This document shows, one piece after another, positions 30,025-50,732 of a stretch of 64,000 bases of DNA. The stretch comes from Nitrospirota bacterium. GTDB taxonomy: Bacteria; Nitrospirota; Thermodesulfovibrionia; Thermodesulfovibrionales; UBA9159. The notes beneath the pieces are model-generated. The model was not told the DNA's origin. It was given only the letters and a program-made list of their open reading frames with translations, and did not search any database. The position numbers were made by a program, and so were the translations under genes. Positions within the stretch are counted from its first letter, which is position 1. Every line of letters starts with the position of its first letter. Location of the stretch: NCBI GenBank assembly GCA_963699545.1, contig CAVOUE010000004.1, positions 1 to 64,000 of the forward strand, in the 5' to 3' direction.

Positions 30025-30045
30025 CGCTCAGTCTCGGAGCGCTGC

Positions 30046-30585: not shown

Positions 30586-30587
30586 GC

Positions 30588-31088: not shown

Positions 31089-31114
31089 ATGCTGCTCCCT
31101 GTCTCCTCAGACCA

Positions 31115-31342
31115 CTAAATCTTCGCCGCCAACATGAGAGCAATAACCAGGCAGTAGATTACCAGCGCTTCTACCAGGGCCATCGCGACGATCATGGCAG
31201 TAAACAACTGCGGTGCTGCTTCCGGTTGCCTGGTCATCCCCTCGATCGCCGTATAGGAGATCTTTCGCATCGCGAAGGCGGCAGCAATGGCGGTTGGTAC
31301 AATGGTCAATGTGGGAACAAGGACTAGGAAGATTTCTTTCAT
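31115..31342 (-). CDS. atpE: ATP synthase subunit c
   Basis: Hairpin with RQPE loop and ion-binding Glu (LVEALVIY). Confidence 0.92.
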   Translation of the reverse strand: MKEIFLVLVPTLTIVPTAIAAAFAMRKISYTAIEGMTRQPEAAPQLFTAMIVAMALVEALVIYCLVIALMLAAKI

Positions 31343-31362
31343 CGGTATCTCTCCTTTCTAAA

Positions 31363-33672: not shown

Positions 33673-33779
33673 GAGACGGCTTGATCGTTTTCTGAAACCA
33701 CGGCTGTACAGTTGAGCTAACCGAGATCATATTCTCTCACGTTACATCCTGACCTTCCCCCGAAAAAGTGGACACCCAG

Positions 33780-34637
33780 TTAAGTTTCATCAAGGAGCCG
33801 TTCATATTGCTCCGGACTCCTATACCCTAATGCCGAGTGTCTCCTCTGACGATTATAGAACACTTCCACGTACTCAAATATGCTGAGCCTTGCCTCCAGC
33901 CTTGAACGGTACTTCTCACCGTGGACCAATTCCGTTTTGAGGGTACCGAAGAACGACTCGGCATAGGCATTATCATAGCAATTGCCACTTCTGCTCATGC
34001 TCGGGGTAATGTCGTATTCTCTGAGAAGCTCCTGATATGCATAGCTCGCGTACTGTCTGCCTCGATCAGAATGGTGGATGAGCCCCTCGGAAGGGGTTTG
34101 CCTGCTTGCTGCCGCCTTCAGCGCATCAGAGGCGAGTTCCTGAGAGAGCTTGGCGCTCATGGACAGCCCGATAATCCTCCTGCTTCTGACATTCATCACT
34201 GCCGCCACATACAGCCAGCCCTCGGAAGTGGGAACAAATGTTATATCTGATGCCCATACCCCCTCTGTCTGTCTCTTTTCAATCAGCAGGTTTGCCGCCA
34301 GGGCATAATCATGCCGTGAATCGGTAGTCCGCCTGAATCTCCTCTTTTTCACTTCCCCACATATTGCATGGTCCTTCATGATCCTGGCTACCCGGTTCTT
34401 CCCGCATTTGACACCCTGTTCATTGAGCTCAACGGTGATCCGGGGACTACCGTACAGCTTTCTGCTTTGAGTGTGGACCTCCCGTATGTGCCCCAGCAGC
34501 TCACGATTGTCTTTTACCCTCGTGCTGACCGGACGACTGCGCCACGCATAATACCCGCTCCTGGATACCTTCAACACCTCACACATGCTTCTCACCTTGT
34601 ACTTCTCCCGGTGCTCTTCCATAAACCCATACTTCAT
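33780..34637 (-). CDS. IS3 transposase OrfB
   Basis: Identical to copy 1 except RQRR versus RQRK. Confidence 0.95.
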   Translation of the reverse strand: MKYGFMEEHREKYKVRSMCEVLKVSRSGYYAWRSRPVSTRVKDNRELLGHIREVHTQSRKLYGSPRITVELNEQGVKCGKNRVARIMKDHAICGEVKKRRFRRTTDSRHDYALAANLLIEKRQTEGVWASDITFVPTSEGWLYVAAVMNVRSRRIIGLSMSAKLSQELASDALKAAASRQTPSEGLIHHSDRGRQYASYAYQELLREYDITPSMSRSGNCYDNAYAESFFGTLKTELVHGEKYRSRLEARLSIFEYVEVFYNRQRRHSALGYRSPEQYERLLDET

Positions 34638-34942
34638 CTGCTTTGTTTGGAGAATACGGCCAAGGCTTTTTTTAAAATATCCCTCTCTTCCTTCACCTTT
34701 TCTAATTCCTTACGGAGCTGCTTTATCTCCGCTCCCTCAGGACTTGAATGCCCTTTGCCCACAAAGGCCTTCTCACCATCTTTCAGCAATCTCCTTCTCC
34801 ACAGATGAAGCAAATTTGGATGAATATCAAGCTCCCGCGCTACCCTACCTACTGGCATCCCCTTTTCCGTGACCAGTTGCACTGCATTCCTCTTGAACTC
34901 ACCGGTGAAATGCCGCCGTTTATCCTCTTTCCCCATACACAC
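34634..34942 (-). CDS. IS3 transposase OrfA
   Basis: Identical to copy 1 except ELEK versus ELEE. Confidence 0.93.
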   Translation of the reverse strand: MCMGKEDKRRHFTGEFKRNAVQLVTEKGMPVGRVARELDIHPNLLHLWRRRLLKDGEKAFVGKGHSSPEGAEIKQLRKELEKVKEERDILKKALAVFSKQSR

Positions 34943-35298
34943 ACCTCCTCTTCCATCTTACAAATCTTTAGGTGTGTCCATCAATTCGGGGAAAGGTCAT
35001 CCCCTAATCTTTAAGGGTTCACAAGATTGAAACAGCGGACTCGTAGGTGTACACAGCAACCCGAAGGCGAAGGGTTGCGCGTTTGTTTCAGAGGAAGGAG
35101 CTGACACTGCGGAGTTCCGCGGGGATAGGGTCTACGCCGTTGCGGCGATGTCCGAAGTAAAACAGAACACCTGCTCAAACTGGTCGGAATATCCAGGCAT
35201 TCTGAGCGAGAGAAATTACTGCGGCTGGATCTTCGTCTTGAGAAAGGTCCCCAACGCTTTATCAATTCTACGTATATGACTGAGCAACCACTCCATGA

Positions 35299-37057: not shown

Positions 37058-37537
37058 TTACGCCTTTTCGGCCGCAAGAAGCATGATTTCCGCGCCGATC
37101 TGCATGTCATCAACGATTCCGAAATAGTGCTTTCGGATAAAACCTTTCTTATCGATGAGGATCAAGGTGGGTGTTCCCCGGCACCGATAATCCCTCATCG
37201 TTAACGGGACAGCTGAACCGGAGGGATCGGGAGCATCAACACCGACAGGAAAGGTATACTTGAACTCGTACAGGAATGACTTTAACGCCGAAGGCGTCAT
37301 CGCTTCATGATGTTCAAATACGGTATGCACACCGATGACGATAACGCCGGCCTTCGAAAATAAATCGAAGATCCTCTGGGTCTGCGGCAACCCGTGAAGA
37401 ACGCAGGCCGGGCAGAGCATCTGGAACGTATGCACAACGATCACCTTGCCCCGGCAGTCCTCGATCTTTATTTCCCTCTCCGTATTTAACCAGAGAGTGG
37501 TTTTCAGTTCCGGGGCGGGGTCATTGTCCTTGTGCAT
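37058..37537 (-). CDS. Redoxin / TlpA-like thioredoxin-fold protein
   Basis: APEL...WLN, FQMLCPAC, HTVFEHH, GTPTLILIDKKG. Confidence 0.85.
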   Translation of the reverse strand: MHKDNDPAPELKTTLWLNTEREIKIEDCRGKVIVVHTFQMLCPACVLHGLPQTQRIFDLFSKAGVIVIGVHTVFEHHEAMTPSALKSFLYEFKYTFPVGVDAPDPSGSAVPLTMRDYRCRGTPTLILIDKKGFIRKHYFGIVDDMQIGAEIMLLAAEKA

Positions 37538-37569
37538 ATCTACCGCCATTTGGGGAGCAACCGGCACGC

Positions 37570-37740
37570 ACCTTCGATGTCGCCATCACTATATCGTTGA
37601 ACACATGACCACGGGGAATTCCCGCCAGAATGAGAAGATCCGCTTCCGTAATGATCCCGATGACGTGGCCCTCACCGTCCACAGCCGGCATTCCGCTTAT
37701 CTTGTACCGTATCAATGATCTTCCGCCTTGTGAATGTCCC
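37570..37740 (-). pseudogene. CBS-domain gene remnant
   Basis: KISGMPAVDGEGHVIGIITEADLL is a single CBS motif with no convincing start and no second CBS domain. Confidence 0.55.
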
Positions 37741-37745
37741 TCTCT

Positions 37746-38246
37746 TTATTTGCGATAAGAGCTGAAAACATAATCCGTCTTTTTCTGCGGTTCGTGGCAG
37801 TTGAAGCACGCGCCCTTTGGGTCAGTCACCGCTCTTTCCCTGGTGTCAGCCTTGAATCCTTCGAACCCCCATCCGCCCGTCTGCGCAAATCTTTTGGAAT
37901 CTTTCTCCATCACGCCGATGATTTTCCTGGGGCCTTCAACAACGGCGCTATTCTCGCTCTTTCCTTCCAGCAGGTCAAAAACCAGGACCGCTCCATCGGG
38001 ATAGGGTTTCCCTCTTTTCATAGCTTCCAGGGCCTTTTTGTTGGCATAGATGTGGTGAATTCCCCCGAAAGACTCAAAGAGAGGATGACCCTGTTGAATC
38101 ACCATTGACTTCACATGGGTCCACTGCCGATACCCTTCGGGATACTTAACGGATTGTTTGCTCCCCCCTCCGGAAAATACCGGTACAGCAAGGAAGAGAC
38201 CGAGGATGAAAACGATGGTGGCCGTAATGATGGGTTGGTTCTTCAT
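37746..38246 (-). CDS. Cytochrome P460-family protein, c'-beta type
   Basis: Signal peptide; YPEGYRQW, YAN, YPDGAVLVFD, GGWGF, C-terminal CFNCH. Confidence 0.85.
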   Translation of the reverse strand: MKNQPIITATIVFILGLFLAVPVFSGGGSKQSVKYPEGYRQWTHVKSMVIQQGHPLFESFGGIHHIYANKKALEAMKRGKPYPDGAVLVFDLLEGKSENSAVVEGPRKIIGVMEKDSKRFAQTGGWGFEGFKADTRERAVTDPKGACFNCHEPQKKTDYVFSSYRK

Positions 38247-38369
38247 AACGCCTTTACCTCCTTTTGTGGAGTTCCGGCCCATGCCGCTCTCCTTTTCATT
38301 GTTGAATGGCTCTCACTCTGCCCAGGGACTAACATTCTACGGGTTTCGGCAATCGTCCTTTCCGCACCT

Positions 38370-39425
38370 TTACCAACCAAACCTGAGATCCGATCTCGCG
38401 AATTCATTCCCGTAGATGTAACCGTCCACATCCTTCAGATTGACGATAATGCCGGCCTTTCTGAAGAACCTGTCCCAGCCGATCCTGTTTATCCATTCTT
38501 TTATTCTTTCGTCAGGTTCGGCACTCCTTTTCCACGCATCCATTATCTGGATAACCGCCTTTACGGCTTCCTCCCACTTTGGAGGGTTATTGGGCAAGTA
38601 GGGGATGACGATCCTTCCGAGGTCAGGACCGCTGCCGGTATTGGATGCCTTGCCTCCAACCGACACGGCAAAGCCATCGAGTTTCGGATCGCCCGTCAGG
38701 ATCGCTTCGCATGCCATGGTGCAAGCCCCGCAGTGTATGCATTTTTCAGCGCTTATCTGGATACCGATTTCACCTTTCGGCTTTATCGCACCTGTAGGGC
38801 AACAGGCGACAACCGTGGGACGTTCGCACAACCTGAACTGATCCTCAAGCACTATAGGCAAATCCCTGTGGACTCCTATTATTCCTATGTCCGCCATCAA
38901 CGCCTCTTCGATATTCGCACAGCCGCCTATGTTTATCTTCAACCATGAAGGCAGTCTCTGGTTTCTGAATTCATCGATCAGGGCATCGCCAAGGGCCTTT
39001 GCGATCCCCGGTGAGTCAGTTGCAGGAAGATTACAGTGGATCCAGCTCGGACACGCCATGATATTGTGCACGGAGTTCTTTGTCCCTCCCACCGGAAACC
39101 CTTCGGCCTCGACCTTTTCGATGAGTTCCTCTATCTTTTGAGGGTTCGCATCCACAAACTCAAAGGAGTTCCTCAAAGTGATCCTGAAGTATCCTCCTGA
39201 GTATTCATCGGCGAGGTCGCAGAGGTCCAGCATCGAGGCGACACTGATCCTCGACGGCGGCATTGCGGTCCTGACCGTATAGCAGACATCCCCTGACTCG
39301 GCGATATGCTTTATAACACCGGGTCTCGGTATCTCATGCCGGTCCCACTTCCCGTAGTTCTTTACTATTACAGGCGGGACATTCTCCTCTATCCTGGGTA
39401 CCCCGATTCCACCGATCTTACTCAT
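38370..39425 (-). CDS. dsrB: Dissimilatory sulfite reductase beta-like subunit (divergent)
   Basis: NYGKW.HE..RPGV.KH.AESGD..YTVR, FPVGGT, WIHC..PATD, CPTGAIKP, CIHCGAC, GGKASN, WINRIGW. Confidence 0.85.
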   Translation of the reverse strand: MSKIGGIGVPRIEENVPPVIVKNYGKWDRHEIPRPGVIKHIAESGDVCYTVRTAMPPSRISVASMLDLCDLADEYSGGYFRITLRNSFEFVDANPQKIEELIEKVEAEGFPVGGTKNSVHNIMACPSWIHCNLPATDSPGIAKALGDALIDEFRNQRLPSWLKINIGGCANIEEALMADIGIIGVHRDLPIVLEDQFRLCERPTVVACCPTGAIKPKGEIGIQISAEKCIHCGACTMACEAILTGDPKLDGFAVSVGGKASNTGSGPDLGRIVIPYLPNNPPKWEEAVKAVIQIMDAWKRSAEPDERIKEWINRIGWDRFFRKAGIIVNLKDVDGYIYGNEFARSDLRFGW

Positions 39426-40647
39426 TGTGACCTCCTACTTCACCCTCGTCCCAGTGATAGAAGGTGTTTCTCCTCGGTGTTGAAAAATGCATCGTCGAGA
39501 TCTCGACCTCGCACCACTGAAGGAATTTGTCAAAACCAACCCTCTGGGCCATATCCCCTATCCGTTCCTTTTTTCTTCCGTGTTCGTCATAGACATCGCA
39601 TATCTTGTTGAATGCCTTGACCAGATCCGCGTAATCGGGCGGTGTCGCCTTAATGAAGGGAAAGATGACCTTTCCTTTCATAGGTCCGAATTTCCCTTTC
39701 ATCTTGCCGCCGGCAGTTATCGCAACGCCCCTGTCATCCCCGGGTTTTATGGCAGGCACGCGGTTGATACAGTACATGCACCGTATGCATCTGTCACCGT
39801 CAATTTCGAGCTTGTCCCCGTCCCAGGGCATTGCATCGGTCGGGCAGTGATCACAGACCCAACGAATATTGCCGCCTTCTTTGACCCACTCCCTCAGCCT
39901 GTCGTTATTCACCTTCGGCAGGTCCTTGAATACGCCTACGATGCCGATGTCTCCATGGAGGAGCGCCTTGCCGCATTCGTTGGGGCAGCCCGACATCTTT
40001 GTCTTTATCTTGAAGGGAAACCTCGGGTACTGTATGTCGTCGATGTAATGGGTCGTCATGAAATGCTTGATTCCCGGGGTGTCCATTACCGCATGTTCAC
40101 AGAGTGCCGGACCCATACAGTCGGGGATGTTCCTGATCGCATCACCTGCGGAGCCTACGTCGTTGCCGACCGCATTGAGTTCGCGCGTCACGGCAGCCAT
40201 AGCATTGTCGTTCATTATCCCGCAGATCTCGATATTGTAATTCGTCGTCAGCATATGGAGGGATCCGTCACCGTGCCTGTCTGCTGTCTCGCATATCTTT
40301 CTGAAGGTTGACGTCTTGAAGAAATTTCCGGGATTGCCGAGAACCCGTATGAGGTGGGAATGACTGATGATATCAGGCCTCCTCGATTTCCTGGCGATGG
40401 CCCCGGAGCCCAGTCCGGGTACAGAGGACATTCCTCCATGTCCCCATTGGGTCAGCCTTAACCTCATGGCCTCTTCATACATCATAACAGGGTAGCGCGT
40501 TTTCTTGAGTTCCTTTGCATGGCTCGGCCACGGTCCTTTTGAGAGCTCATCCATGAGGGGTGTTTCTGTTGTTTTACCGCCCGGTTCTTCTGCGATCTTC
40601 TCCTTCGGTGCTGCATGAATGGGAGATTCCGGCATATATGCCTCCAT
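39418..40647 (-). CDS. dsrA: Dissimilatory sulfite reductase alpha-like subunit (divergent)
   Basis: TPLMDEL.KGPWPS, W.HGG, CMGPALC...FPFKIK.K.SGCPNEC, CPT, CIRCMYCIN, ERIGD. Confidence 0.88.
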   Translation of the reverse strand: MEAYMPESPIHAAPKEKIAEEPGGKTTETPLMDELSKGPWPSHAKELKKTRYPVMMYEEAMRLRLTQWGHGGMSSVPGLGSGAIARKSRRPDIISHSHLIRVLGNPGNFFKTSTFRKICETADRHGDGSLHMLTTNYNIEICGIMNDNAMAAVTRELNAVGNDVGSAGDAIRNIPDCMGPALCEHAVMDTPGIKHFMTTHYIDDIQYPRFPFKIKTKMSGCPNECGKALLHGDIGIVGVFKDLPKVNNDRLREWVKEGGNIRWVCDHCPTDAMPWDGDKLEIDGDRCIRCMYCINRVPAIKPGDDRGVAITAGGKMKGKFGPMKGKVIFPFIKATPPDYADLVKAFNKICDVYDEHGRKKERIGDMAQRVGFDKFLQWCEVEISTMHFSTPRRNTFYHWDEGEVGGHNE

Positions 40648-40719
40648 TCTTCCTATTAAAGAATCAGTTCTCCTTTTCTACCCTATAACTTATCTTTAGC
40701 GTATCCATAAACAAGATGC

Positions 40720-40735
40720 TATGATTTAAATCATA
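40720..40735. promoter_or_regulatory. Crp/Fnr-type box upstream of the dsrA-like gene
   Basis: Perfect palindrome TATGATTTAAATCATA. Confidence 0.7.
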
Positions 40736-41004
40736 AGGGAACGGTAGGGGGCTCGCCGTTTTCCCCGACCTTTTTCATGCGCTTATCAGGCACCACGCGT
40801 TTTACAGCCGGCAGACCGGACACATAAAACGGGATTTGAAACCGCGATCCAGTCCCATGTATCTGAATTCCATGTGATACCTGCATATCGTGCTTCTGCA
40901 CCCAGGACCGATAAAATCTGCGGTATCCCTGCGAGGGAACCCGTTGCTATTCCAAGTGGTTCCCTCGCGTCTTCTTTTTACTCGCTCACACGAGGCTTTG
41001 TCCG

Positions 41005-42087
41005 CTATGAGTAGACACCGTATTTCTTTGCGGCCTCTACCATCCTCTTCGCATTGCGGAGGGGTGCGTTCGGCCCGAATTCGCAGCCGGTGGCGAGGAC
41101 GTACCCTCCGCCCTTCGCAAAGATTTCTATCTCGGCCTTGCATTCTTCCTCGATCTCCTCGGGGGTCCCGAGCATCGCTACCGGTCCCGGGGGCACCCAG
41201 CCGATGGTGACGATCTTGTTTCCCCACTTCGCCTTATGATCTTCCCAGCTGTCCACGTCGTCGGCGACATACGCGTGAGAGACCGCATGGGGTTTGCCCC
41301 ATTTGTCGATCATGTCGAAGTAGATCCCGTTTCCGCAGTTGTGATGGCTCACCAGCGCTCCGGCGTTCCTGATCGTATCGCATACCAGCTTGAGAGATTC
41401 TCCTTCGAACTGCTCCCACAGTTCCTTGCTCAGGATGGACTGGGAAGCGTAGAGGTTGTCATAGCAGACAGAATGGGCACCTGCCTCGACCTGGGCAAGA
41501 GCATACTCGTTAAGCACTTCGTCCATGATCTTCAGAGCGCCCATCACTTCATCGGGGTATTCGATGAGGTCCTGGAAGAAGTTCTCCGGACCGCGCATCA
41601 TGCTCAATGTTCCGAGGGAACCATAGACAAAGCCCACGATCGCATGGGTCTTGCCGATCTCTTTCGCCAGGCCGGCGGTCAGGTCTATCACGGCCTTCAT
41701 CCTCTGCGTCTTCCTTGGGTTGATCTTCTGGATCTTCTTGTAGTCCTCCTTCGGATTCTTAATAAAATTGTTGTCATAATTAGGATGCGCCGTGTCAAAC
41801 TCAGGGAAGATAACCTCGCAGCCAAAAGCCTGGGCTTCTACCGAAAGGTCGAGCAGCATTACGACGCCGTCATGTCCGATCATGTCCAGGGCGTCTACAT
41901 GTCCTTTGACCATTGCGTCGATGTTCGTCCCCTGAGACCATTCCCCGTAGGTTATGCCGGCAAGCCTGTGGCTTGCGCCGCATACAAGGGGAGCGGCAGG
42001 TACCCTGTCAGGCTCCTTGAACTGAAAGGTCGTCCCTACTCTCTCAAGACCTGTCATCTGCTCTGTCTTGGTACTTATCTGTGCCAT
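41005..42087 (-). CDS. MtaA/CmuA (URO-D fold) methylcobamide:thiol methyltransferase-like protein
   Basis: PDRVP, DLSVEAQAFG, HNCGNG, GGYVLATGCE; HxC...C Zn ligands. Confidence 0.82.
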   Translation of the reverse strand: MAQISTKTEQMTGLERVGTTFQFKEPDRVPAAPLVCGASHRLAGITYGEWSQGTNIDAMVKGHVDALDMIGHDGVVMLLDLSVEAQAFGCEVIFPEFDTAHPNYDNNFIKNPKEDYKKIQKINPRKTQRMKAVIDLTAGLAKEIGKTHAIVGFVYGSLGTLSMMRGPENFFQDLIEYPDEVMGALKIMDEVLNEYALAQVEAGAHSVCYDNLYASQSILSKELWEQFEGESLKLVCDTIRNAGALVSHHNCGNGIYFDMIDKWGKPHAVSHAYVADDVDSWEDHKAKWGNKIVTIGWVPPGPVAMLGTPEEIEEECKAEIEIFAKGGGYVLATGCEFGPNAPLRNAKRMVEAAKKYGVYS

Positions 42088-42305
42088 TGCGTTACCTCCT
42101 CACGATAGTTTTACAATTGATGAAATCTGCCTTCAGTGACCTAAAAGGCCAATGTTCCTCCCTCTGATAGATCTCTAAGCAGTACCACCACCTCCTTTTC
42201 TTTCGTCCACACTGAAAATCCGGCCGAACTACGGCTGCAGATTTCTCTGCATAAGGCTGGATTTTTCATCTTGTTTTCATTTTAGAGGTGAACTAAGAAA
42301 AGAAA

Positions 42306-42321
42306 TATGACTCTTGACACG
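42306..42321. promoter_or_regulatory. Degenerate Crp/Fnr-type box upstream of the mtaA-like gene
   Basis: TATGACTCTTGACACG with -10 TAAAAT (minus strand, 42279-42284) at the shared spacing. Confidence 0.55.
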
Positions 42322-42439
42322 TTTGAAACTTTTTTCCCCTGCAGTCTTTTACCGGCGCCTTCCGGCGTAAGTCCGGTCGGGATGGGTAAATGCTCCCGAG
42401 ACCGATCCGAAACGTCAGGAGTGAATTAAAGGGGGAGGG

Positions 42440-42823
42440 TTATCTGCGGCCGACCGCCTGAGCGAGTATGTCACGATTCTCGTAGATGTTTCCTATGACC
42501 TCGCAATCGCTCTCTTTCCAGAGATTGCAGGCAAAACCGAAGTCTTCTCCGAATCCGAAGACGGAAGAGATAATGTAGTATTTCCTGTTCCGGACTCCGA
42601 AGGATGAGACATCAACGATATCTCCGACATAGATCTCGGTGTCCCATTTATCCCTCATTCCGGTATACTGTTGACTCTTTCTTTCGACGACATCGGCGTA
42701 GTCCCCGCAGTCACAGGGAGGAGGGACGAACTGGTCATCAAAAAAACCCCAGAAATGAAATTTGCCCTGGTGCCACACTCTGAATCTGATCTTCTTCCTT
42801 ATTTCACGGGTGAGCATCTTCAT
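42440..42823 (-). CDS. YopX-family protein
   Basis: IRFRVW, QYTG.RDK...EIY.GDIV, EVIGNIYEN. Confidence 0.85.
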   Translation of the reverse strand: MKMLTREIRKKIRFRVWHQGKFHFWGFFDDQFVPPPCDCGDYADVVERKSQQYTGMRDKWDTEIYVGDIVDVSSFGVRNRKYYIISSVFGFGEDFGFACNLWKESDCEVIGNIYENRDILAQAVGRR

Positions 42824-42906
42824 CCTCCTATTGGTTCGAAGGGTTTTCTTTTACACAAGCGTCCTTTGACACCGTTAACAGAATACTATAAAGGGCGTCA
42901 AGATTT

Positions 42907-42922
42907 TATGATACAGATCATA
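42907..42922. promoter_or_regulatory. Crp/Fnr-type box upstream of the Cys-rich ORF and regulator
   Basis: TATGATACAGATCATA; -10 TAGACT at 42944-42949. Confidence 0.7.
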
Positions 42923-42979
42923 ACCATTGTCCCGACAGAAGGCTAGACTAAAAGCATCCAGCCGATGAGGAGGTAATGT

Positions 42980-43189
42980 ATGTTTTGCTGCTTCGTCTGC
43001 ATCGAATGCGGCCATTACGGAGACCCTGACATGTCGCGGTGGAAGAAGACAGACGGCCGGGACAGAAGGTGCCATCAGTGCATTGTAGAGAGTGGTGATG
43101 CTACAGAAGAAGAGATAAGGCTCTGGAAAGATACTCTCCGTTTTCAGAAAGCGCCCGATGACCTTCCGAAGGGTGAGCTTGTTATGTGA
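42980..43189 (+). CDS. Small Cys-rich (metal-binding) protein
   Basis: SD GAGGAGG 6 nt upstream; CCxxCxxC and CxxC. Confidence 0.6.
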   Translation: MFCCFVCIECGHYGDPDMSRWKKTDGRDRRCHQCIVESGDATEEEIRLWKDTLRFQKAPDDLPKGELVM

Positions 43190-43233
43190 TATGTGTCCCG
43201 TCATGTTCATGTCATCACGTCTTCCAAAAGCAG

Positions 43234-43249
43234 TGTGACATTTATCACA
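43234..43249. promoter_or_regulatory. Consensus CRP/HcpR-like box abutting the regulator start (likely autoregulation)
   Basis: TGTGACATTTATCACA. Confidence 0.7.
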
Positions 43250-43256
43250 TCTAAAA

Positions 43257-44042
43257 TTGGCAGCGATGTACTATTTTGAAAAAAAGAAGGATTGCGAGAC
43301 CCTTTCATCCATCCCTTTTTTCAGGGAGATGGGTGAAGAGATAACCTGTTTCATCCTCGAATACGCTTCACATAAATACCTTCCCAAGGGGCAATATCTC
43401 TTTATGGCCGACGAAGTCTGCACGAACCTTTACATAGTCGAGGAGGGGCTTGTAGAAATCTCTCAGTTGAGCGAAGAAGGGAAAAAGATTGTTTTGCACC
43501 ATGCTACGAGGGGCGCTTTTTTGGGAGACACGATTCTTTTTAATGTGGGCAGATATGGAGCATATGCGCATTCCCTCGAAGATTCGGAGTTGTTATCCAT
43601 AGACAAGAAGAGTTTTGAAGGGATCATTCATGCTTATCCCGAGATCGGGATAAAGATGCTCGCTGATTTTGGAGAAAGAATCGAGAGGCTGAAATCACTG
43701 GTGGCGGAAGTAGCGCTCAACGATGTCAGGAAGAGGATCGTCAGGCTGCTCGTTGAACTCATCGAAGGCGAAAAGGAGAACTGTGTCTCGCGGGCAGGAG
43801 TCGATTACAGAAACAGCGTAATTCTCAGGAATGTCCCGACCCAGGACCAGATGGCTCACAGGATAGGGACCGTGAGAGAGGTCTTATGCAAGGGGCTGCA
43901 CAAGCTCGAAAGAGACCGCGTTATCAGGGTGAAAAGAGGGCAGATTGAGATAAACGACGTGCGGCGGTTGCGGGAGATGGTCTTTGAAAACAAGGGGGAC
44001 AGGCTCTTCCCCATCATGCTTCCGGCGAAAAGGAAAGCGTAG
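43257..44042 (+). CDS. Crp/Fnr family transcriptional regulator
   Basis: cNMP-binding fold (LYIVEEG.V, G..LG), HTH TQDQMAHRIGTVREVL. Confidence 0.92.
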   Translation: MAAMYYFEKKKDCETLSSIPFFREMGEEITCFILEYASHKYLPKGQYLFMADEVCTNLYIVEEGLVEISQLSEEGKKIVLHHATRGAFLGDTILFNVGRYGAYAHSLEDSELLSIDKKSFEGIIHAYPEIGIKMLADFGERIERLKSLVAEVALNDVRKRIVRLLVELIEGEKENCVSRAGVDYRNSVILRNVPTQDQMAHRIGTVREVLCKGLHKLERDRVIRVKRGQIEINDVRRLREMVFENKGDRLFPIMLPAKRKA

Positions 44043-44410
44043 GACAAGAGAGAGCTCATTATCACCTTCCAGGATGCAACTCGGCATCATCTTTACAACT
44101 TCCAGCCGACTCGCTAAAATTACTCGTATGGTTGCTCGTAAAGCTCCGATATTTGTCATTGCGGCTTATACCCCTTCAACTTCAGGCGGATCCGCCGGGA
44201 CTGACGATCCCTTTTAAGGGAAAGATTCCCGGGGAGCGGGAATGACATATCACTTGACGCGTACGATGGATTCGTGAAGCGTGCGGGTTTTGGAGGTACC
44301 GTTTCTTCCATTGACACGAAGGGTTTCAAAGATTTATCGTACTTCAATTCCGACTCAGGAGGGACAGAACGAAGAACCACGGAGACCTGACACTGCTGGT
44401 CGAGGAGGCG

Positions 44411-44977
44411 GTGAGGGATCATAGAAAGCTCAGGAACATCATATCTCTCCTTTACGATGAGGATATGGGTCAACGCCTCATCGCGGCAAAGGCGCTCGGG
44501 GAAATAGCACGACGAGAGCCTGAGCTTATGAAACAGAGGTGGGAACGTCTCTTCAGGGCCTTTGATGACACCATGAGCTGCTGGGGCGTTGCAGAGGCAC
44601 TGGGAGAGATAGCAAGAAACTTGCCGGAGCACAGAAGGAAGATCGTTTTGTTCCTGAAAGTGTTCAGGAAGGACGAGTGTAGCTGCCAGGGGTATCTATG
44701 GGGGATGTGCAGGATCTGCCAGGTTGACAGGGACATGATCAAAGACTTCATTCCTGAACTGACGGGTTTTTTGAATTCACCCAACGTCTGTATGACCGGG
44801 CAGGCCATATGGGTCGTCGGTGAATTGGGCATAAAGGAAGCAACGGTAGAGATAAAGGGTTTTCTGGATGATGCAAGGGAGACCTGGATTTTTGAGAATG
44901 ATTCGGTCTGTATAAAAAGCATCCGCTGGATTGCAAAGGAAGCTCTCAGCAAACTGGAATGTCGAGAGAGTCTCTAA
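44411..44977 (+). CDS. HEAT-repeat protein (DVU0298-like)
   Basis: LLYDED, AAKALG, WGVAEALGEI, AIWVVGEL; SD GAGGAGG. Confidence 0.7.
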   Translation: MRDHRKLRNIISLLYDEDMGQRLIAAKALGEIARREPELMKQRWERLFRAFDDTMSCWGVAEALGEIARNLPEHRRKIVLFLKVFRKDECSCQGYLWGMCRICQVDRDMIKDFIPELTGFLNSPNVCMTGQAIWVVGELGIKEATVEIKGFLDDARETWIFENDSVCIKSIRWIAKEALSKLECRESL

Positions 44978-45011
44978 TAGTAAAAAAGTTCTTCTCTCCG
45001 TAAAGTGTTGT

Positions 45012-45737
45012 TCAGGGGATGTCTGCTTTCAAAGGTTTCAGGGTTCTTAATCTCGCGATCTCCTCATGATATCCGTAGATGTGGGCCCCGGCGCTGTATA
45101 CGTACATCGGTCCGTTGGTCAGCTTTGTCTCGCTTGCCACCAGCTTCTTCAGGAGTTCTATCCCGCCAAGGTTGGTGGGAAATCCCGCCCAGAGGTCCCA
45201 CGAGCGAAAATAGCAGCTCACGGTGAGCACCAGATCATCACCTGAGGGGATCGCCTTAAAGTCGAGAAGCCTCAGACACGGCGGGTCCAGTTTTCCGTCG
45301 TTGCCGAAGCAGATGTCGTGATCCTCGGGAGTGCCGACCTCAACGACCGCCTGGTTTGTGAGGGGCGTTTTTTTGAGCAGCTCCATCACCCGCTCGAGCT
45401 GCGTTCCCCCCTTTGGCATGGGATGATGTATCCTGCTTGCGTACTTGTACGTCTCGTTCTCAGCCAGGGTGGGGTCCATGAGGTAGTGCACAAAATAGTC
45501 TTCGATATAGTCCATGGTGGTCGGGGCAGGGATCCCCGAAGCAGGGGGCATCACCGGGATCATATCTTCACCGGGATATTCGATGAAGACCGCTATACCG
45601 GGATACTGCAGACGGTATTGCTCATTCTCAAATGAGCCGTGCTGTATGTTTTGGGTATAGGCATGATCGAACAGGTTGTAAATCAGCTGGAACCACGCAT
45701 CGGAAATAGTCTTTGCCTTCACAAAAAATGGAACCAT
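45012..45737 (-). CDS. thyA: Thymidylate synthase (short, archaeal-like ThyA)
   Basis: PPCLR, YFRSWDL..GFPTN, AHIY. Confidence 0.85.
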   Translation of the reverse strand: MVPFFVKAKTISDAWFQLIYNLFDHAYTQNIQHGSFENEQYRLQYPGIAVFIEYPGEDMIPVMPPASGIPAPTTMDYIEDYFVHYLMDPTLAENETYKYASRIHHPMPKGGTQLERVMELLKKTPLTNQAVVEVGTPEDHDICFGNDGKLDPPCLRLLDFKAIPSGDDLVLTVSCYFRSWDLWAGFPTNLGGIELLKKLVASETKLTNGPMYVYSAGAHIYGYHEEIARLRTLKPLKADIP

Positions 45738-45970
45738 CGGTATTCCCCTTTCTCCGTCAGTGAGCTCCGGCAACAAATTATCATATCACAATCAGGGGGG
45801 GAAATTGCGGGCGAACATTGCGGAAACAACACGAGACCTGCAACGAGATGGGGTTATGCGTTGCTTCCGTGAGAACGTCTTTTCGACGGTGCTCCAATGA
45901 AGCGAGCACGCTGCGGCTGACCAATGGCAGGGAAGCCAGAGCCATTAGTCAGCCCTTATTTACGGGATGG

Positions 45971-46288
45971 TCAGCATTCAACGGGTTTCGGCAATCCGGC
46001 CAGCTTGTATGCAGTCCTGTACCCTAAGGAGGGAAAGAGTCTGTACATGTCGGCCTTCGTAAAGCCTGCTTCAATGAGAATGTCGCGGCACACGGGGGAT
46101 ACTCTGTTCCTCTCATAATGGAGCCTGATCGCTGTAATGAGCTTCCAGTGTTCACCGGTGAGCGCTCCGACGCCTTCCATCCCCGCGAGTTGCTCTGCAA
46201 CGCGCACATCCCAGGTATCAATGTCCCTGAGATACCCGTCTTCATCCAGTTCCAGTCTTTTTTCGCTGCTTTCTACGGCTGTTGTCAT
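45971..46288 (-). CDS. TusE/DsrC family sulfur-carrier-like protein (terminal Cys only)
   Basis: LDEDGYL...W, LT.EHW, LFP, AGLPKPVEC. Confidence 0.88.
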   Translation of the reverse strand: MTTAVESSEKRLELDEDGYLRDIDTWDVRVAEQLAGMEGVGALTGEHWKLITAIRLHYERNRVSPVCRDILIEAGFTKADMYRLFPSLGYRTAYKLAGLPKPVEC

Positions 46289-46374
46289 GAGTGCACCTCC
46301 TTGGTTTGTAAGAACATCCCTATCCCTCGTCTCTTACGTCCACTTTAATGGTATATCCTTTCTGTCAATAAACC

Positions 46375-46390
46375 TATGATATATGTCATA
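46375..46390. promoter_or_regulatory. Crp/Fnr-type box upstream of the tusE/dsrC-like gene
   Basis: TATGATATATGTCATA; -10 TACCAT (minus strand, 46348-46353). Confidence 0.7.
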
Positions 46391-48990: not shown

Positions 48991-49584
48991 ATGGCCTGGA
49001 TGAAAGACAAGATAATCAAAGCCTTCGAAGAAAGCATAACCGTCAAAGACAAGTTCGTTAAGGAAAACGTTGACATGATCGTGGGGGCTTCGAAGCTCAT
49101 CGCCGATGCCTTCAATGACGGCAAGAAACTCTTCCTCTTCGGCAACGGCGGAAGCGCGACGGATGCCTCGCACATTGCCGCGGAATTCGTGAACCGGTTC
49201 AAACGCGACCGGCCGGGGCTTCCCGCCATTGCCCTCAACACCGATGTGGCGGTGCTCACCTCCATCGCCAATGATTATGACTTTTCCGAGATCTTTGCGC
49301 GACAGCTCAAATCTCTGTCTGAAGAAGGGGATGTGGTCCTCGCCATTAGCACCAGCGGCAATTCAGGCAACGTGCTTAAGGCCATGGATGTGGCAAAGAG
49401 GAAAAAGCTCAGGACCATAATCTTTACAGGAGCAAAGGGGGAGAAGTTCGCTGCCAAGGCGGAGTTCGGCTTTGTCGTTCCGTCCGAGAACACCCCGAGG
49501 GTGCAGGAGACCCACATTACGTTGGGACATGTCCTCTGCCAGATGGTGGAGGAGATACTCTTTGAGACACCGAGAAAGAGGTAG
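48991..49584 (+). CDS. gmhA: D-sedoheptulose 7-phosphate isomerase
   Basis: GNGGSA.DA.H, ANDY, ISTSGNS, RVQETH. Confidence 0.93.
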   Translation: MAWMKDKIIKAFEESITVKDKFVKENVDMIVGASKLIADAFNDGKKLFLFGNGGSATDASHIAAEFVNRFKRDRPGLPAIALNTDVAVLTSIANDYDFSEIFARQLKSLSEEGDVVLAISTSGNSGNVLKAMDVAKRKKLRTIIFTGAKGEKFAAKAEFGFVVPSENTPRVQETHITLGHVLCQMVEEILFETPRKR

Positions 49585-49620
49585 CGGGATCGTACGCGTT
49601 GACCCGGACACGGGTCGTGG

Positions 49621-50115
49621 ATGGGGAGCATGATCATCCTTGGTTTGGACCCCGGCCTGGCAAGCACCGGTTTTGGTGCCATCAGTTGTACAAGAGACTC
49701 CTCTTCCCTGCTGAAGTGCGGGTATATAAAGACCTCTCCTAAGGAACATATCTCCGACAGACTTTTCCATATCCATTCGGACATCAATCACCTGATCCGC
49801 GCCCTCCATCCTGACCTGATCGCCATAGAGAATGTATTCTCTCTCGTAAGATACCCCAAGGCCGGTATATTATTGGGAGGGGTTTTGGGTATCATATATC
49901 TGTCTGTTTTCCAGAATAATGTGTCGATGGTGGAAATTACGGCGAAAGAGGTGAAGAATGCCCTGGTGGGATATGGCGGGGCGGACAAGCGTCAGGTGAA
50001 CGAGACGATAAAGGATCTGCTGAACCTTTCTGAACTCAGGTCGTTTCACGCCTCTGATGCACTGGCGGTGGCCCTGACCGCGTTTTACCGGAACTCCGGC
50101 GGGAGGAAACGGTGA
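49621..50115 (+). CDS. ruvC: Holliday junction resolvase
   Basis: ILGLDPG, AIE.VF, GYGGADK.QV, DALAVA. Confidence 0.92.
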   Translation: MGSMIILGLDPGLASTGFGAISCTRDSSSLLKCGYIKTSPKEHISDRLFHIHSDINHLIRALHPDLIAIENVFSLVRYPKAGILLGGVLGIIYLSVFQNNVSMVEITAKEVKNALVGYGGADKRQVNETIKDLLNLSELRSFHASDALAVALTAFYRNSGGRKR

Positions 50116-50732
50116 TCTCTTATCTCAAAGGGGAGCTCCGGATGAACCGCGCCCATGACGACAGGGTCACCCTCGTCGTGAACGGGATAGGCTATGATGT
50201 CCTGATCCCCGCGTTTGTGATGAAGAGGGTCAGGGCGGACAAGAAAGAGGGAGACGAGTTGGAACTCTATGTCTCATACAACCAGACAGAGCGGCAGCCG
50301 AAACCGGTCCTCGTGGGGTTTGAATCTCCCCTGGACAAAGAGTTCTTTGAGCTCTTCATCTCTGTGGAAGATATAGGGCCTTCAGCGGCGGTAAAGGCCC
50401 TGGTAAAGCCGGTAAGGGAGATCGCCCGTTCCATTGAGGGGAAGGATACCAGGGCGTTGAAGGAGTTGAAGGGCATTGGCGAGAGAAAGGCCGAAAAGAT
50501 CATCGCCACTCTCAAGGGGAAGGTGGCGAAGTATGCGCTGATGCCTGAGATCGCAGCGCCGGTCGAGATCGTGGAGGACTTCAGAAAGGAAGTGGAAGAC
50601 GTCCTGATAAGTCAGCTGGGGCATAAGCTCCTGGAGGCCCGGCAGTTGATCGAGGCTGCCATGAAGCGGAATCCCCGCATCGGGTCATCGGAAGAGTTGT
50701 TCGAGGAAGTCTATCGGGGGGAGAGGCAGTGA
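50112..50732 (+). CDS. ruvA: Holliday junction branch migration protein
   Basis: MISYLKG, NGIGY, IGP, GIG.RKAEKII. Confidence 0.9.

What the first reader, a model, noticed from the sequence alone, without database searches (positions are those of the whole stretch)
37058..46390. Candidate undescribed system: divergent DsrAB-like siroheme enzyme with methyltransferase, cytochrome c'-beta, one-Cys DsrC/TusE and a Crp/Fnr regulator
Seen: adjacent dsrA-like and dsrB-like genes. No dsrD, dsrN, dsrL, dsrEFH, dsrT or dsrMKJOP is in the window. Neighbours are an MtaA/CmuA protein upstream, a cytochrome c'-beta and a redoxin downstream, and nearby a Crp/Fnr regulator, a HEAT protein and a TusE/DsrC. 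The DsrA N-terminus is short (PWPSHAKELKKTRYP...QWGHGGMSSVPG) and departs from canonical bacterial THWKHGGIVGV. The basic substrate-binding residues (ARK, IRV, IRN, FKIK) appear retained. Known: canonical DsrAB works with a two-Cys DsrC, and siroheme enzymes can also reduce nitrite and hydroxylamine. Inference: an early-diverging or archaeal-like DsrAB repurposed for nitrogen-oxide or sulfite detoxification, or for methyl-sulfur metabolism, rather than sulfate respiration.
Basis: partly seen in the sequence, partly recalled or inferred. Interest (0 to 1): 0.88.

Follow-up and report, generated by a model that had tools for sequence, protein, structure and literature searches.

The report
Altered second DsrAB copy with own regulon
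A sulfate-reducing bacterium carries, besides its normal sulfite reductase, a second early-branching copy whose key active-site cysteine is gone and which belongs to its own small set of co-regulated genes, so it probably does some other, still unknown job.

Summary
The dsrA-like and dsrB-like pair (39418-40647, 38370-39425, minus strand) is a second copy. The same genome has a full canonical dsrAB-dsrN-dsrC-dsrMKJO locus on another contig.

In paralog-rooted trees the pair falls outside the reductive bacterial type. It lies in a tight subclade (G1) nested among the published "basal type II / earliest evolved" DsrAB of Verrucomicrobiota, Planctomycetota and Chloroflexota.

G1 differs from those relatives in three linked ways:
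- DsrB has lost the last Cys of C-x3-C, which is recalled to be the siroheme-bridging ligand.
- The partner DsrC has lost CysB.
- dsrMK is not in the locus.

dN/dS is about 0.03, so the pair is under strong constraint.

The proposed "system" holds only in part. The MtaA-like, cytochrome c'-beta and redoxin genes are absent from every other G1 locus examined. The one-Cys DsrC, the Crp regulator and the HEAT (DVU0298-family) protein recur, as does a CBS protein, of which the window keeps a 50-residue remnant.

A palindrome, TATGAT-N4-ATCATA, precedes dsrA' in most G1 loci. In this genome it also precedes the unlinked dsrC', CBS, AF_0155-like/DUF2249, NapH-like and cooS genes.

Function is unknown. 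The most likely reading is a regulated, non-respiratory redox module. It is a new variant of a known kind.

The parts
39418..40647 (-). dsrA' (DsrA-like, 409 aa as called; homologs suggest a start about 25 codons in)
   Evidence: TIGR02064 scores 316.7 bits, below the 392.85 cut-off. The best solved relative is 3mm5_A. The C-x5-C...C-x3-C motif and R/R/K/K are kept. Relatives are 64-89% identical in Nitrospirota MAGs.
38370..39425 (-). dsrB' (DsrB-like, 351 aa); cluster motif reads CPSWIHC ... GGCAN-IEE, so the fourth Cys is missing
   Evidence: TIGR02066 scores 384.7 bits, above 341.5. Motif tables are. dN/dS is 0.03-0.04.
45971..46288 (-). dsrC' (one-Cys DsrC/TusE-family protein), unlinked here but directly downstream of dsrB' in most relatives
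   Evidence: PF04358 E-value 1.1e-24 and TIGR03342 75.2 bits, above 53.5.
43257..44042 (+). Crp/Fnr-family regulator, divergent from dsrA'
   Evidence: PF00027 and PF13545 match. A 51% ortholog lies divergent from dsrA' in L051/L056.
44411..44977 (+). HEAT-repeat protein of the DVU0298 family, with invariant Cys
   Evidence: NF045662 scores 83.2 bits, above 75. Orthologs lie next to dsrA' in L042 and L051/L056. Invariant C57, C92 and C127 are seen.
40720..40735 (.). operator TATGATTTAAATCATA, 73 nt upstream of the dsrA' start
42907..42922 (.). operator TATGATACAGATCATA, 84 nt upstream of the YopX-like gene and 335 nt upstream of crp
   Evidence: Its 14-nt core is identical to the box upstream of dsrA' in L042.
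46375..46390 (.). operator with one mismatch, TATGATATATGTCATA, 87 nt upstream of dsrC'
   Evidence: The same arrangement precedes the unlinked dsrC' of G376.
43234..43249 (.). TGTGA-N6-TCACA palindrome just before the crp start
   Evidence: Read directly. That this is the CRP consensus is recalled. Not tested further.
37581..37730 (-). remnant (50 residues, 64% identity to residues 72-121) of the CBS-pair gene that follows dsrC' in other loci
37746..38282 (-). cytochrome c'-beta-like protein (P460 family, signal-peptide-like N-terminus); a neighbour, not a conserved member
   Evidence: It is absent from the other G1 loci.
37058..37567 (-). ResA/TlpA-like redoxin; a neighbour, not a conserved member
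41005..42087 (-). URO-D superfamily, MtaA/CmuA-like protein below the family cut-offs; a neighbour, not a conserved member
42440..42823 (-). YopX-like (phage-type) gene between crp and the MtaA-like gene
   Evidence: PF09643 E-value 3.2e-10.
45012..45776 (-). divergent thymidylate-synthase-like gene between the HEAT gene and dsrC'
   Evidence: PF00303 E-value 2.9e-11; TIGR03283 scores 64.8 bits, below 174.55.

Best explanation
**What it is (shown).** The window holds a second, divergent dsrAB pair (dsrA'B') in a bacterium that also has a complete canonical Dsr pathway. Names on the closest relatives place the host in the Nitrospirota. The pair belongs to a tight subclade, G1, that arose inside the early-branching "basal type II" DsrAB. 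Those relatives are organised as dsrABC-MK and have a two-Cys DsrC.

**How G1 differs (shown).**
- DsrB' has lost the last Cys of its C-x3-C motif. It reads C-x-N-[IV]-E-E, with a one-residue deletion.
- The partner DsrC' keeps only the C-terminal Cys.
- dsrMK is gone from the locus.
- A G1-specific palindromic operator, TATGAT-N4-ATCATA, precedes dsrA'.

**The regulon in this genome (shown).** The ancestral cluster (HEAT, crp, dsrA'B'C', CBS, AF_0155-like gene) has been broken up by insertions and rearrangement. The same operator still marks dsrA', dsrC', the crp region, the CBS homolog, the AF_0155-like/DUF2249 pair, two NapH-like iron-sulfur membrane protein genes and cooS.

**How it most likely works (inferred).**
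- DsrA'B' is not a respiratory sulfite reductase. It is a Crp-family-controlled accessory redox module.
- The anion pocket lined by DsrA' Arg/Arg/Lys/Lys is kept.
- The neighbouring DsrB' cluster has three Cys, possibly with a Glu as fourth ligand, so the classical Cys-bridged siroheme-[4Fe-4S] unit cannot form.
- DsrC' docks its C-terminal Cys as a one-sulfur (persulfide-type) carrier and does not form a trisulfide.
- Electrons may come through the co-regulated NapH-like and ferredoxin-like proteins, with no role for DsrMK.
- The substrate (sulfite or sulfane sulfur, or a nitrogen oxide) is not determined.
For: **Second copy.**
- Canonical dsrA (530 bits) and dsrB (474 bits) lie on contig C3.
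- dsrN, two-Cys dsrC and dsrMKJO lie beside them.

**Placement.**
- In the 78-sequence tree of DsrA plus DsrB, G1 is monophyletic (SH-like support 0.998 and 0.999).
- G1 is sister to the Verrucomicrobiota group (0.893 and 0.978).
- Both lie outside the clade of Ca. Pyrohabitans plus 24 reductive bacterial pairs, which includes this genome's own canonical pair (0.997).
- In a tree of 119 DsrB, the 30 G1 sequences form a clade (0.993) nested among the 48 G2 sequences.

**Cys loss.**
- All 30 DsrB that are at least 57% identical to the window's lack the fourth Cys.
- All 89 that are at most 53% identical have it.
- In the DsrA/DsrB column table the counts are 9 of 9 lacking against 30 of 30 having.
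- The affected segment is the one next to the active siroheme. A. fulgidus N180B, in C-C-A-N-M-C, is described as proximal to the active siroheme (passage read).
- The pair is constrained: dN is about 0.1, dS is saturated, and dN/dS is 0.028-0.038.

**DsrC.**
- The window's DsrC' and all 8 G1-linked copies have only the terminal Cys.
- The 5 G2 copies read GACKLAGLPKPTGC[VI] and are followed by dsrMK.

**Synteny.**
- dsrC' is directly downstream of dsrB' in 7 of 10 distinct G1 loci that have downstream sequence.
- CBS, the AF_0155-like gene, DUF2249, Crp and HEAT recur.

**Operator.**
- The exact ATGAT-N4-ATCAT is present in 12 of 18 G1 dsrA' upstream regions. Each region matched in 0-6 of 2000 shuffles.
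- It is present in 0 of 60 non-G1 dsrA upstream regions.
- This genome has 19 sites at up to 1 mismatch. Twenty-five permuted palindromes gave a mean of 3.6 and a maximum of 10.
- The sites lie upstream of dsrA', dsrC', the AF_0155-like/DUF2249 pair, the CBS homolog, the NapH-like genes and cooS.
- In G376 the second of two sites lies upstream of an unlinked dsrC'.
Against: - No biochemical or expression data exist. No RNA run was found.
- The role of the missing Cys as the siroheme-bridging ligand is recalled from E. coli SiRHP and the Dsr structures. It was not measured here. No model with cofactors could be built, so a substitute ligand cannot be excluded.
- The DsrA' basic residues that line the affected site are strictly conserved, which would also fit an enzyme that still turns over an oxyanion.
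- The trees are FastTree only. The IQ-TREE run timed out.
- The trees hold no oxidative-type, reductive-archaeal or Moorella second-copy references. Assignment to the published "basal type II" therefore rests on the shared host phyla, not on shared reference sequences.
- Which Crp-family protein binds the operator is not shown. The crp gene lies beside dsrA' in only 3 distinct loci.
- The operator also occurs in a sister genome without dsrA'B', so the regulon is older and wider than this enzyme.
- Near-identical contigs (L042/L045, L049/L050, L051/L056, L047/L058) inflate the raw counts.
Confidence: 0.6

Rival explanations
1. Nitrogen-oxide or nitrosative-stress reductase. DsrA'B' would reduce nitrite, hydroxylamine or NO under a Crp/Fnr-type (HcpR/Dnr-like) regulator, and in this genome the periplasmic NO-binding cytochrome c'-beta would act alongside it.
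For: - A cytochrome c'-beta-like gene lies directly downstream of dsrB' here.
- A hemerythrin-HHE protein lies next to dsrB' in L042/L045, and DUF2249 lies next to dsrA'B' in L041 and L051. That these families are typical of NO-responsive gene sets is recalled.
- The regulator is of the Crp/Fnr family.
- Siroheme sulfite reductases can reduce nitrite and hydroxylamine (established knowledge, recalled).
Against: - The cytochrome is found next to dsrA'B' in 0 of 17 other G1 loci, and here it occupies the slot of the displaced dsrC' and CBS genes.
- It has a signal-peptide-like N-terminus, whereas DsrA'B' has none, so the two would sit in different compartments.
- The most constant partner is a DsrC-family sulfur carrier.
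- No hcp, nor or nir gene was found under the operator. The prismane-family gene under it is cooS (TIGR01702, 545.8 bits), not hcp (29 bits).
Confidence: 0.15
2. An ordinary alternative dissimilatory sulfite reductase isoenzyme. DsrA'B' would reduce sulfite for energy conservation, borrowing the canonical two-Cys DsrC and DsrMKJOP encoded elsewhere in the genome.
For: - DsrB' passes the TIGR02066 cut-off.
- All DsrA' cofactor and substrate residues are kept.
- The canonical DsrC and DsrMKJO exist in the same genome.
- The nearest relatives (G2) have a full dsrABCMK set.
Against: - The fourth Cys of the DsrB cluster motif is lost throughout G1.
- G1's own DsrC' lacks CysB.
- dsrMK is never adjacent in G1 loci.
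- G1 has a separate operator that is absent from all 60 other dsrA promoters examined, including this genome's canonical one.
Confidence: 0.12
3. A catalytically dead scaffold or sensor. DsrA'B' would only bind an oxyanion or DsrC', for example for signalling or for sulfur hand-over without redox chemistry. DsrC' would then act as a carrier or regulator.
For: - The cluster ligand recalled to couple the siroheme electronically is lost.
- One half-site of canonical DsrAB is already non-catalytic (recalled; passages on the structural siroheme read).
- CBS-pair and Crp proteins, both typical ligand sensors, accompany it.
Against: - All other cluster Cys, the ferredoxin-domain Cys and the R/R/K/K pocket are strictly kept under strong purifying selection.
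- Iron-sulfur proteins (NapH-like, AF_0155-like) are co-regulated with it, which points to electron flow.
Confidence: 0.1

Closest known systems
"Basal type II" / "earliest evolved" DsrAB of Verrucomicrobiota, Planctomycetota, Chloroflexota, Methylomirabilota and one Hydrothermarchaeota genome (PMC12948486 and PMC6018805, passages read; PMC10504309)
   Same: - 45-53% identical.
- The QWGxGG...PG motif in DsrA and C-x5-C in DsrB are shared.
- G1 is sister to, or nested within, this group in my trees.
- The papers state that its function is unknown.
   Different: - G1 lacks the last Cys of the DsrB C-x3-C motif, has a one-Cys DsrC and has no adjacent dsrMK. The relatives have all three.
- G1 has its own operator.
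- In all 5 Nitrospirota genomes examined that carry it, G1 is a second copy beside a canonical pair.
- Nitrospirota are not listed among basal-type hosts in the passages I read. The supplements could not be seen.
Canonical DsrAB-DsrC dissimilatory sulfite reductase (solved: A. fulgidus 3mm5, D. vulgaris 2v4j)
   Same: - Two paralogous subunits with inserted ferredoxin domains.
- DsrA keeps its Cys motif and the Arg/Arg/Lys/Lys pocket.
- The best solved matches are 3mm5_A (238 bits) and 3mm5_B (314 bits).
   Different: - Only 33-38% identical to Nitrospirota DsrA.
- DsrA scores below the TIGR02064 cut-off.
- The DsrB cluster motif is C-x5-C...C-x-N-I-E-E where canonical DsrB has T-x5-C...C-C-x-N-M-C.
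- The DsrC partner has no CysB.
- There is no dsrD, dsrN or dsrMK in the locus.
Second dsrAB copy of Moorella ("basal type I")
   Same: A divergent second dsrAB in a genome that also holds a canonical dsr cluster, and of unknown function (passages).
   Different: - In the papers it is a separate, deeper branch whose hosts are Firmicutes and Chloroflexota.
- It is said to lie near dsrC and dsrN.
- No Moorella sequence was available to me, so the relation was not tested.
TusE / one-Cys DsrC-family sulfur carriers
   Same: DsrC' passes TIGR03342 (75.2 bits, above 53.5) and keeps only the Cys at the tip of the C-terminal arm.
   Different: It scores far below the TusE equivalog cut-off (52.9 bits, below 191). 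It travels with dsrA'B', not with tusBCD-like genes.

Membership tests
DsrAB dissimilatory sulfite reductase (NCBIfam equivalogs) | DsrA scores above the TIGR02064 cut-off | tested here: not met
   316.7 bits against a cut-off of 392.85. The genome's canonical copy scores 530.4.
DsrAB dissimilatory sulfite reductase (NCBIfam equivalogs) | DsrB scores above the TIGR02066 cut-off | tested here: met
   384.7 bits against a cut-off of 341.5.
DsrAB dissimilatory sulfite reductase | Four Cys ligands for the [4Fe-4S] cluster on DsrB next to the active siroheme, including the last Cys of C-x3-C (recalled to be the bridging ligand) | tested here: not met
   The window reads GGCAN-IEE. The fourth Cys is absent in 30 of 30 sequences that are at least 57% identical, and present in 89 of 89 more distant DsrB.
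DsrAB dissimilatory sulfite reductase | DsrA C-x5-C...C-x3-C motif and the substrate-pocket residues Arg, Arg, Lys, Lys | tested here: met
   CMGPALC...CPNEC is present. R/R/K/K is kept in 39 of 39 DsrA aligned.
DsrAB dissimilatory sulfite reductase | Works with a two-Cys DsrC and a DsrMK(JOP) module | tested here: not met
   The linked DsrC' has one Cys in 9 of 9 copies. There is no dsrM or dsrK in the window or in G1 loci. Whether it uses the canonical set in trans cannot be tested here.
Basal type II DsrAB (PMC12948486) | Branches with the DsrAB of Verrucomicrobiota, Planctomycetota and Chloroflexota, outside the archaeal and bacterial reductive types | tested here: inconclusive
   G1 groups with named Verrucomicrobiota and Opitutaceae MAG sequences (SH-like 0.89-0.98). 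The paper's own reference sequences, and archaeal, oxidative and Moorella references, were not in my trees.
Basal type II DsrAB (PMC12948486) | Accompanied by DsrC, DsrN and DsrM of the same deep type (the paper's inferred minimum set) | tested here: not met
   G2 loci carry dsrC-dsrM-dsrK. G1 loci carry a one-Cys dsrC' and no dsrM, dsrK or dsrN.
TusE/DsrC/DsvC family | Score above the TIGR03342 cut-off, with a Cys in the C-terminal arm | tested here: met
   75.2 bits against a cut-off of 53.5. The protein ends ...AGLPKPVEC.
MtaA/CmuA methylcobamide methyltransferases | Score above the TIGR01463 or NF004889 cut-off | tested here: not met
   114.7 bits against 235.4, and 121.6 bits against 244. 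Only URO-D superfamily membership is shown (PF01208, 182 bits).
DVU0298 family (HEAT-repeat protein) | Score above the NF045662 cut-off | tested here: met
   83.2 bits against a cut-off of 75.
Cytochrome c'-beta (P460 fold without P460 chemistry) | Closer to the solved c'-beta chains than to true cytochromes P460 | tested here: met
   6hih_A scores 184 bits, and 7ead_A (labelled "Cytochrome_P460 domain-containing protein") 164 bits, whereas the chains named Cytochrome P460 score 46 bits or less. The naming of 6hih as c'-beta is recalled. The Lys cross-link position was not examined.

The most novel reading that the evidence does not exclude
G1 DsrA'B'C' would be a new kind of siroheme-family enzyme. 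Loss of the bridging Cys would leave a three-Cys (plus Glu) [4Fe-4S] cluster with an open iron site beside a still-intact anion pocket. The chemistry would then differ from six-electron sulfite reduction. It would act on a DsrC'-bound sulfur or on another small molecule. Electrons would come from NapH-like quinol-linked proteins, and a Crp-family sensor would switch it on together with CO dehydrogenase.
Probability: 0.22. Interest if true: 0.82.

Novelty: new variant of a known kind. Interest (0 to 1): 0.62.

Why it matters
dsrAB is the standard marker gene used to infer sulfate or sulfite respiration from genomes and metagenomes. The papers cited here use the basal DsrAB lineages to date and reconstruct the origin of that metabolism.

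This finding shows a widespread, strongly conserved offshoot of the basal lineage that passes the DsrB family model. It lacks three things the textbook mechanism needs: the cluster Cys next to the active siroheme, the second Cys of DsrC, and DsrMK. It also sits as a second copy in ordinary sulfate reducers.

Counting such genes as sulfite reductases would mislead marker-gene surveys and ancestral reconstructions.

The conserved operator and the dispersed regulon (dsrC', CBS, AF_0155-like, DUF2249, NapH-like, cooS) give a concrete and testable handle on what the "function unknown" basal-type enzymes do.

Tried and rejected
- **IQ-TREE.** The run with ultrafast bootstraps on the 78-sequence alignment hit the 300 s limit. 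FastTree was used in its place.
- **Search of cluster representatives with DsrB'.** The best hit was only 42% identical and most hits were fragments, so the result was not used for trees.
- **Complex prediction, HEAT protein against DsrA'+DsrB'.** No support (scores 0.03 and 0.01, mark 0.32). This is no verdict either way.
- **The look-up of sequencing runs.** No RNA holder was listed, and the DNA holders held only small shares.
- **Promoter and terminator scan.** Counts did not exceed shuffles, so it was uninformative.
- **FNR consensus TTGAT-N4-ATCAA in the window.** 36 matches against 33.7 expected, so no signal. It did lead me to the ATGAT-N4-ATCAT variant.
- **The search of earlier findings by place, sequence and words.** Nothing was held.
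- **The listing of cluster members.** It gave few organism names. One archaeal-like DsrB cluster is labelled Bathyarchaeia.
- **DVU0298 in the literature.** The only paper uses the tag for a CO dehydrogenase locus in a table, which tells nothing about the HEAT family.
- **CooA-like identity for the Crp protein.** I compared its sequence by eye with the CooA haem-ligand positions as I recall them, and no His or Cys lies at the recalled ligand positions. I dropped the idea. No alignment was made.
- **The active site moved to the DsrA'-coupled siroheme.** I considered this idea. The DsrB' residues at the equivalent pocket positions are H/R, H, W, K in G1 and H, H, K, K in G2, so the pocket is no more basic. 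The idea is not supported.
- **Literature.** Searches, and passages read, mention neither a basal-type second copy in Nitrospirota nor the DsrB Cys loss. Supplementary tables were closed and may list such genomes.

Full report
**1. Observation.**

- The DsrA-like protein (39418-40647, minus) scores 316.7 bits on TIGR02064, below the 392.85 cut-off.
- The DsrB-like protein (38370-39425, minus) scores 384.7 bits on TIGR02066, above the 341.5 cut-off.
- Upstream lies a URO-D superfamily protein that resembles MtaA/CmuA but scores far below those cut-offs.
- Downstream lie a P460-family cytochrome and a ResA-like redoxin. The cytochrome's closest solved relative is 6hih (184 bits), which I recall to be a cytochrome c'-beta.
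- Nearby are a Crp/Fnr regulator, a HEAT protein that passes the NCBIfam DVU0298-family model, and a DsrC/TusE protein ending ...AGLPKPVEC with no second Cys.

No homolog of this genome's DsrN, DsrM or DsrK lies in the window. No DsrD-family or DsrE-family match lies on this contig.

**2. It is a second copy.**

The window's genome has 13 contigs and is 87% complete. Contig C3 holds a canonical dsrA (530 bits) and dsrB (474 bits). These are followed by a weak DsrD-like ORF, dsrN, a DVU0298-family fragment, a two-Cys dsrC and dsrMKJO.

I searched 401 genomes sampled from the same phylum. Of these, 208 have a DsrA match, but only 5 carry a copy at least 79% identical to the window's DsrA'. The 5 include this genome and fall in four families. 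All 5 also carry a canonical DsrA that is 33-35% identical. The distribution is patchy and the sequences are very similar across classes.

**3. Where it sits in the family.**

Database relatives fall into steps:
- 57-90% identical: MAGs labelled Nitrospirota or Thermodesulfovibrionales, plus one labelled Hydrothermarchaeota. I call this group G1.
- 45-53% identical: Verrucomicrobia, Planctomycetes, Anaerolineae/Chloroflexota and NC10. I call this group G2.
- Then the canonical types.

In a paralog-rooted FastTree of 39 DsrA plus 39 DsrB:
- G1 is monophyletic (SH-like 0.998 and 0.999).
- G1 is sister to G2 (0.893 and 0.978).
- Both lie outside the clade of Ca. Pyrohabitans plus 24 reductive bacterial pairs, which includes this genome's own canonical pair (0.997).

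In a larger tree of 119 DsrB with 4 DsrA as outgroup, the 30 G1 sequences form a clade (0.993) nested among the 48 G2 sequences.

The literature already describes the wider group:
- Anantharaman et al. [quoted passage not shown]
- PMC12948486 (passages) names "basal type II DsrAB" and says basal types have no validated function.

The passages I read do not list Nitrospirota as hosts. I could not include Moorella second-copy, reductive-archaeal or oxidative references, and IQ-TREE timed out.

**4. What is different about G1.**

*(a) The DsrB cluster motif.*
- Canonical DsrB reads T-x5-C ... C-C-x-N-M-C.
- G2 reads C-x5-C ... C-x-N-[NQ]-C.
- G1 reads C-P-x-W-x-H-C ... C-x-N-[IV]-E-E, with a one-residue deletion and no fourth Cys.
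- This holds for all 30 sequences at least 57% identical to the window's DsrB'. It holds for none of the 89 more distant ones. In the joint table the counts are 9 of 9 against 0 of 30.
- The segment lies beside the active siroheme. A preprint passage places A. fulgidus N180B, in C-C-A-N-M-C, next to the active siroheme and a cluster.
- That the last Cys of C-x3-C is the ligand bridging cluster and siroheme is recalled from E. coli sulfite reductase and the Dsr structures.

*(b) DsrA' is unchanged.* It keeps its own full Cys motif and the Arg/Arg/Lys/Lys pocket (39 of 39 DsrA).

*(c) The DsrC partner.* The G1-linked DsrC' proteins (the window's plus 8) have Tyr in place of CysB. They end in ...KPxEC or ...KPSGCN. 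The five G2 DsrC read GACKLAGLPKPTGC[VI].

*(d) dsrMK.* G2 loci continue with dsrM and dsrK, and G1 loci never do.

*(e) Selection.* dsrB' is under strong purifying selection (dN about 0.1, dS saturated, ratio 0.03-0.04). This is an altered working protein, not a decaying gene.

**5. The neighbourhood.**

I compared 4 loci from related genomes, 15 metagenome contigs and 2 named MAG contigs.

Not conserved:
- The MtaA-like, cytochrome and redoxin genes were found next to dsrA'B' in none of them.
- The MtaA-like gene has an 84% ortholog in G175. That genome is in the same family but lacks dsrA'B', and the gene's neighbours there are unrelated.

Conserved:
- dsrC' is directly after dsrB' in 7 of 10 distinct loci with downstream sequence.
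- Further recurrent neighbours are a CBS-pair protein, a 150-residue Cys-rich protein (AF_0155-like by the protein atlas, score 0.95), DUF2249, a divergent Crp gene and the DVU0298-family HEAT gene.
- The fullest order, seen in L056 and L043, is HEAT, crp(-), dsrA', dsrB', dsrC', CBS, AF_0155-like, SIS, ruvC, ruvA, ruvB.

The window's arrangement is a rearranged version of this:
- SIS, ruvC and ruvB lie at 48991-51799.
- dsrC' lies 5.3 kb from the dsrA' start, on the far side of crp and the HEAT gene.
- A 50-residue remnant of the CBS gene lies between the cytochrome and the redoxin (37581-37730).
- A YopX-like gene and a thymidylate-synthase-like gene are interspersed.
- An IS3 element lies 2 kb away, with a second copy 10 kb further on.

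The cytochrome and redoxin look like later arrivals. The cytochrome has a signal-peptide-like N-terminus and the redoxin is ResA-like (below cut-off), so they may form a periplasmic pair of their own. That last point is inference.

**6. A shared operator.**

A palindrome, TATGAT-N4-ATCATA, lies 64-111 nt upstream of dsrA'.
- The exact core is present in 12 of 18 G1 upstream regions. Merging near-identical contigs and dropping one truncated gene gives 9 of 14.
- Each region matched in only 0-6 of 2000 shuffles.
- The core is present in 0 of 60 dsrA upstream regions of G2, Ca. Pyrohabitans and canonical loci, and it is absent upstream of this genome's canonical dsrA.

In the window it occurs three times:
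- before dsrA' (40720);
- between the YopX-like gene and crp (42907);
- with one mismatch, before dsrC' (46375).

Genome-wide there are 19 sites at up to one mismatch. Twenty-five palindromes with permuted half-sites gave a mean of 3.6 and a maximum of 10. Thirteen of the 19 lie within 350 nt upstream of an ORF start. Among the genes they precede are:
- the AF_0155-like/DUF2249 pair (two sites);
- two NapH-like Fer4_5 genes;
- cooS (TIGR01702, 545.8 bits, above 478).

A further site lies about 105 nt before the start of the homologous part of the CBS homolog. There my ORF caller extended the reading frame over the site.

So the genes that are clustered with dsrA'B' elsewhere are scattered here but carry the same box.

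Other genomes agree:
- In G376 the only other exact site lies 61-76 nt before an unlinked dsrC' (75% identical).
- In G302 it precedes a CBS paralog next to a Crp gene.
- In G175, which has no dsrA'B', sites precede a CBS-like gene and the NapH-like ortholog.

The regulon is therefore older than the enzyme's arrival. Which Crp-family protein binds the box is inferred from adjacency in 3 distinct loci.

**7. How it most likely works.**

Shown:
- identity and placement;
- the loss of the Cys;
- the one-Cys partner;
- the lack of dsrMK;
- the operator.

Inferred:
- The classical route cannot run on this set. That route is a Cys-bridged siroheme-cluster unit that forms a DsrC trisulfide, which DsrMK then reduces.
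- The retained anion pocket, the retained CysA arm of DsrC' and the co-regulated iron-sulfur proteins point to a regulated, non-respiratory redox module. In it DsrC' would carry a single sulfur, and NapH-like proteins may feed electrons.

I put 0.6 on this overall reading. Most of that weight rests on the shown parts.

Rivals:
- a nitrogen-oxide stress enzyme (0.15);
- an ordinary isoenzyme using the canonical DsrC and DsrMK in trans (0.12);
- a non-catalytic scaffold or sensor (0.1).

**8. Verdict.**

The "early-diverging, not for sulfate respiration" reading is supported. The proposed membership of the system is largely wrong, and a different, testable module takes its place. This is a new variant of a known kind (basal-type DsrAB).

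Noticed in passing
window 23477-24727 and 33749-34999: Two copies, 99.8% identical over 1251 nt, of an IS3-family element (HTH_Tnp_1 plus rve ORFs). They flank a 9 kb segment that holds part of an ATP synthase operon (28549-32070). The nearer copy lies 2 kb from the redoxin gene.
   Followed up: partly
L155 (G000:C3:828448-830208, minus): A cooS-type CO dehydrogenase (TIGR01702, 545.8 bits) has the TATGAT-N4-ATCATA box 181 nt upstream. It is followed by a 195-residue fragment of another URO-D/MtaA-like gene.
   Followed up: partly
L154 (G000:C3:240276-242200): A heme-copper oxidase subunit I-like gene (PF00115) is split over several overlapping frames behind a cbb3 subunit II-like cytochrome c. 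It is either a frameshifted pseudogene or an assembly error. One-mismatch boxes lie at C3:239927 and C3:243838, and an exact box at C3:243729.
   Followed up: no
G000:C5:352995-353270 (minus): A third DsrC-family gene whose C-terminal arm reads ...AGLPKPNPQVL..., so neither of the two functional Cys is present.
   Followed up: no
window 4893-5915 and 14349-16821: Another URO-D/MtaA-like ORF, and ORFs with homologs (43% and 32% identical) about 7 kb upstream of the MtaA-like ortholog of G175. The genome has several paralogs of this family. They were not annotated further.
   Followed up: no
window 44411-44977 and alignment A3: The DVU0298-family HEAT protein has invariant Cys at positions 57, 92 and 127 across 32 sequences. 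A 113-residue fragment of the same family lies between dsrN and dsrC in the canonical locus on C3. This is a recurrent dsr-associated protein of unknown role.
   Followed up: partly
L042/L045 (G376:C73): Next to dsrB' lie a hemerythrin-HHE protein, a Tat-signal molybdopterin oxidoreductase, a 4Fe-4S dicluster protein and a Fer4_5 (NapH-like) protein.
   Followed up: no
window 42440-42823 and 45012-45776: A YopX-like phage gene and a divergent thymidylate-synthase-like gene lie inside the broken-up dsr' locus. The YopX-like gene has the operator 84 nt upstream.
   Followed up: no
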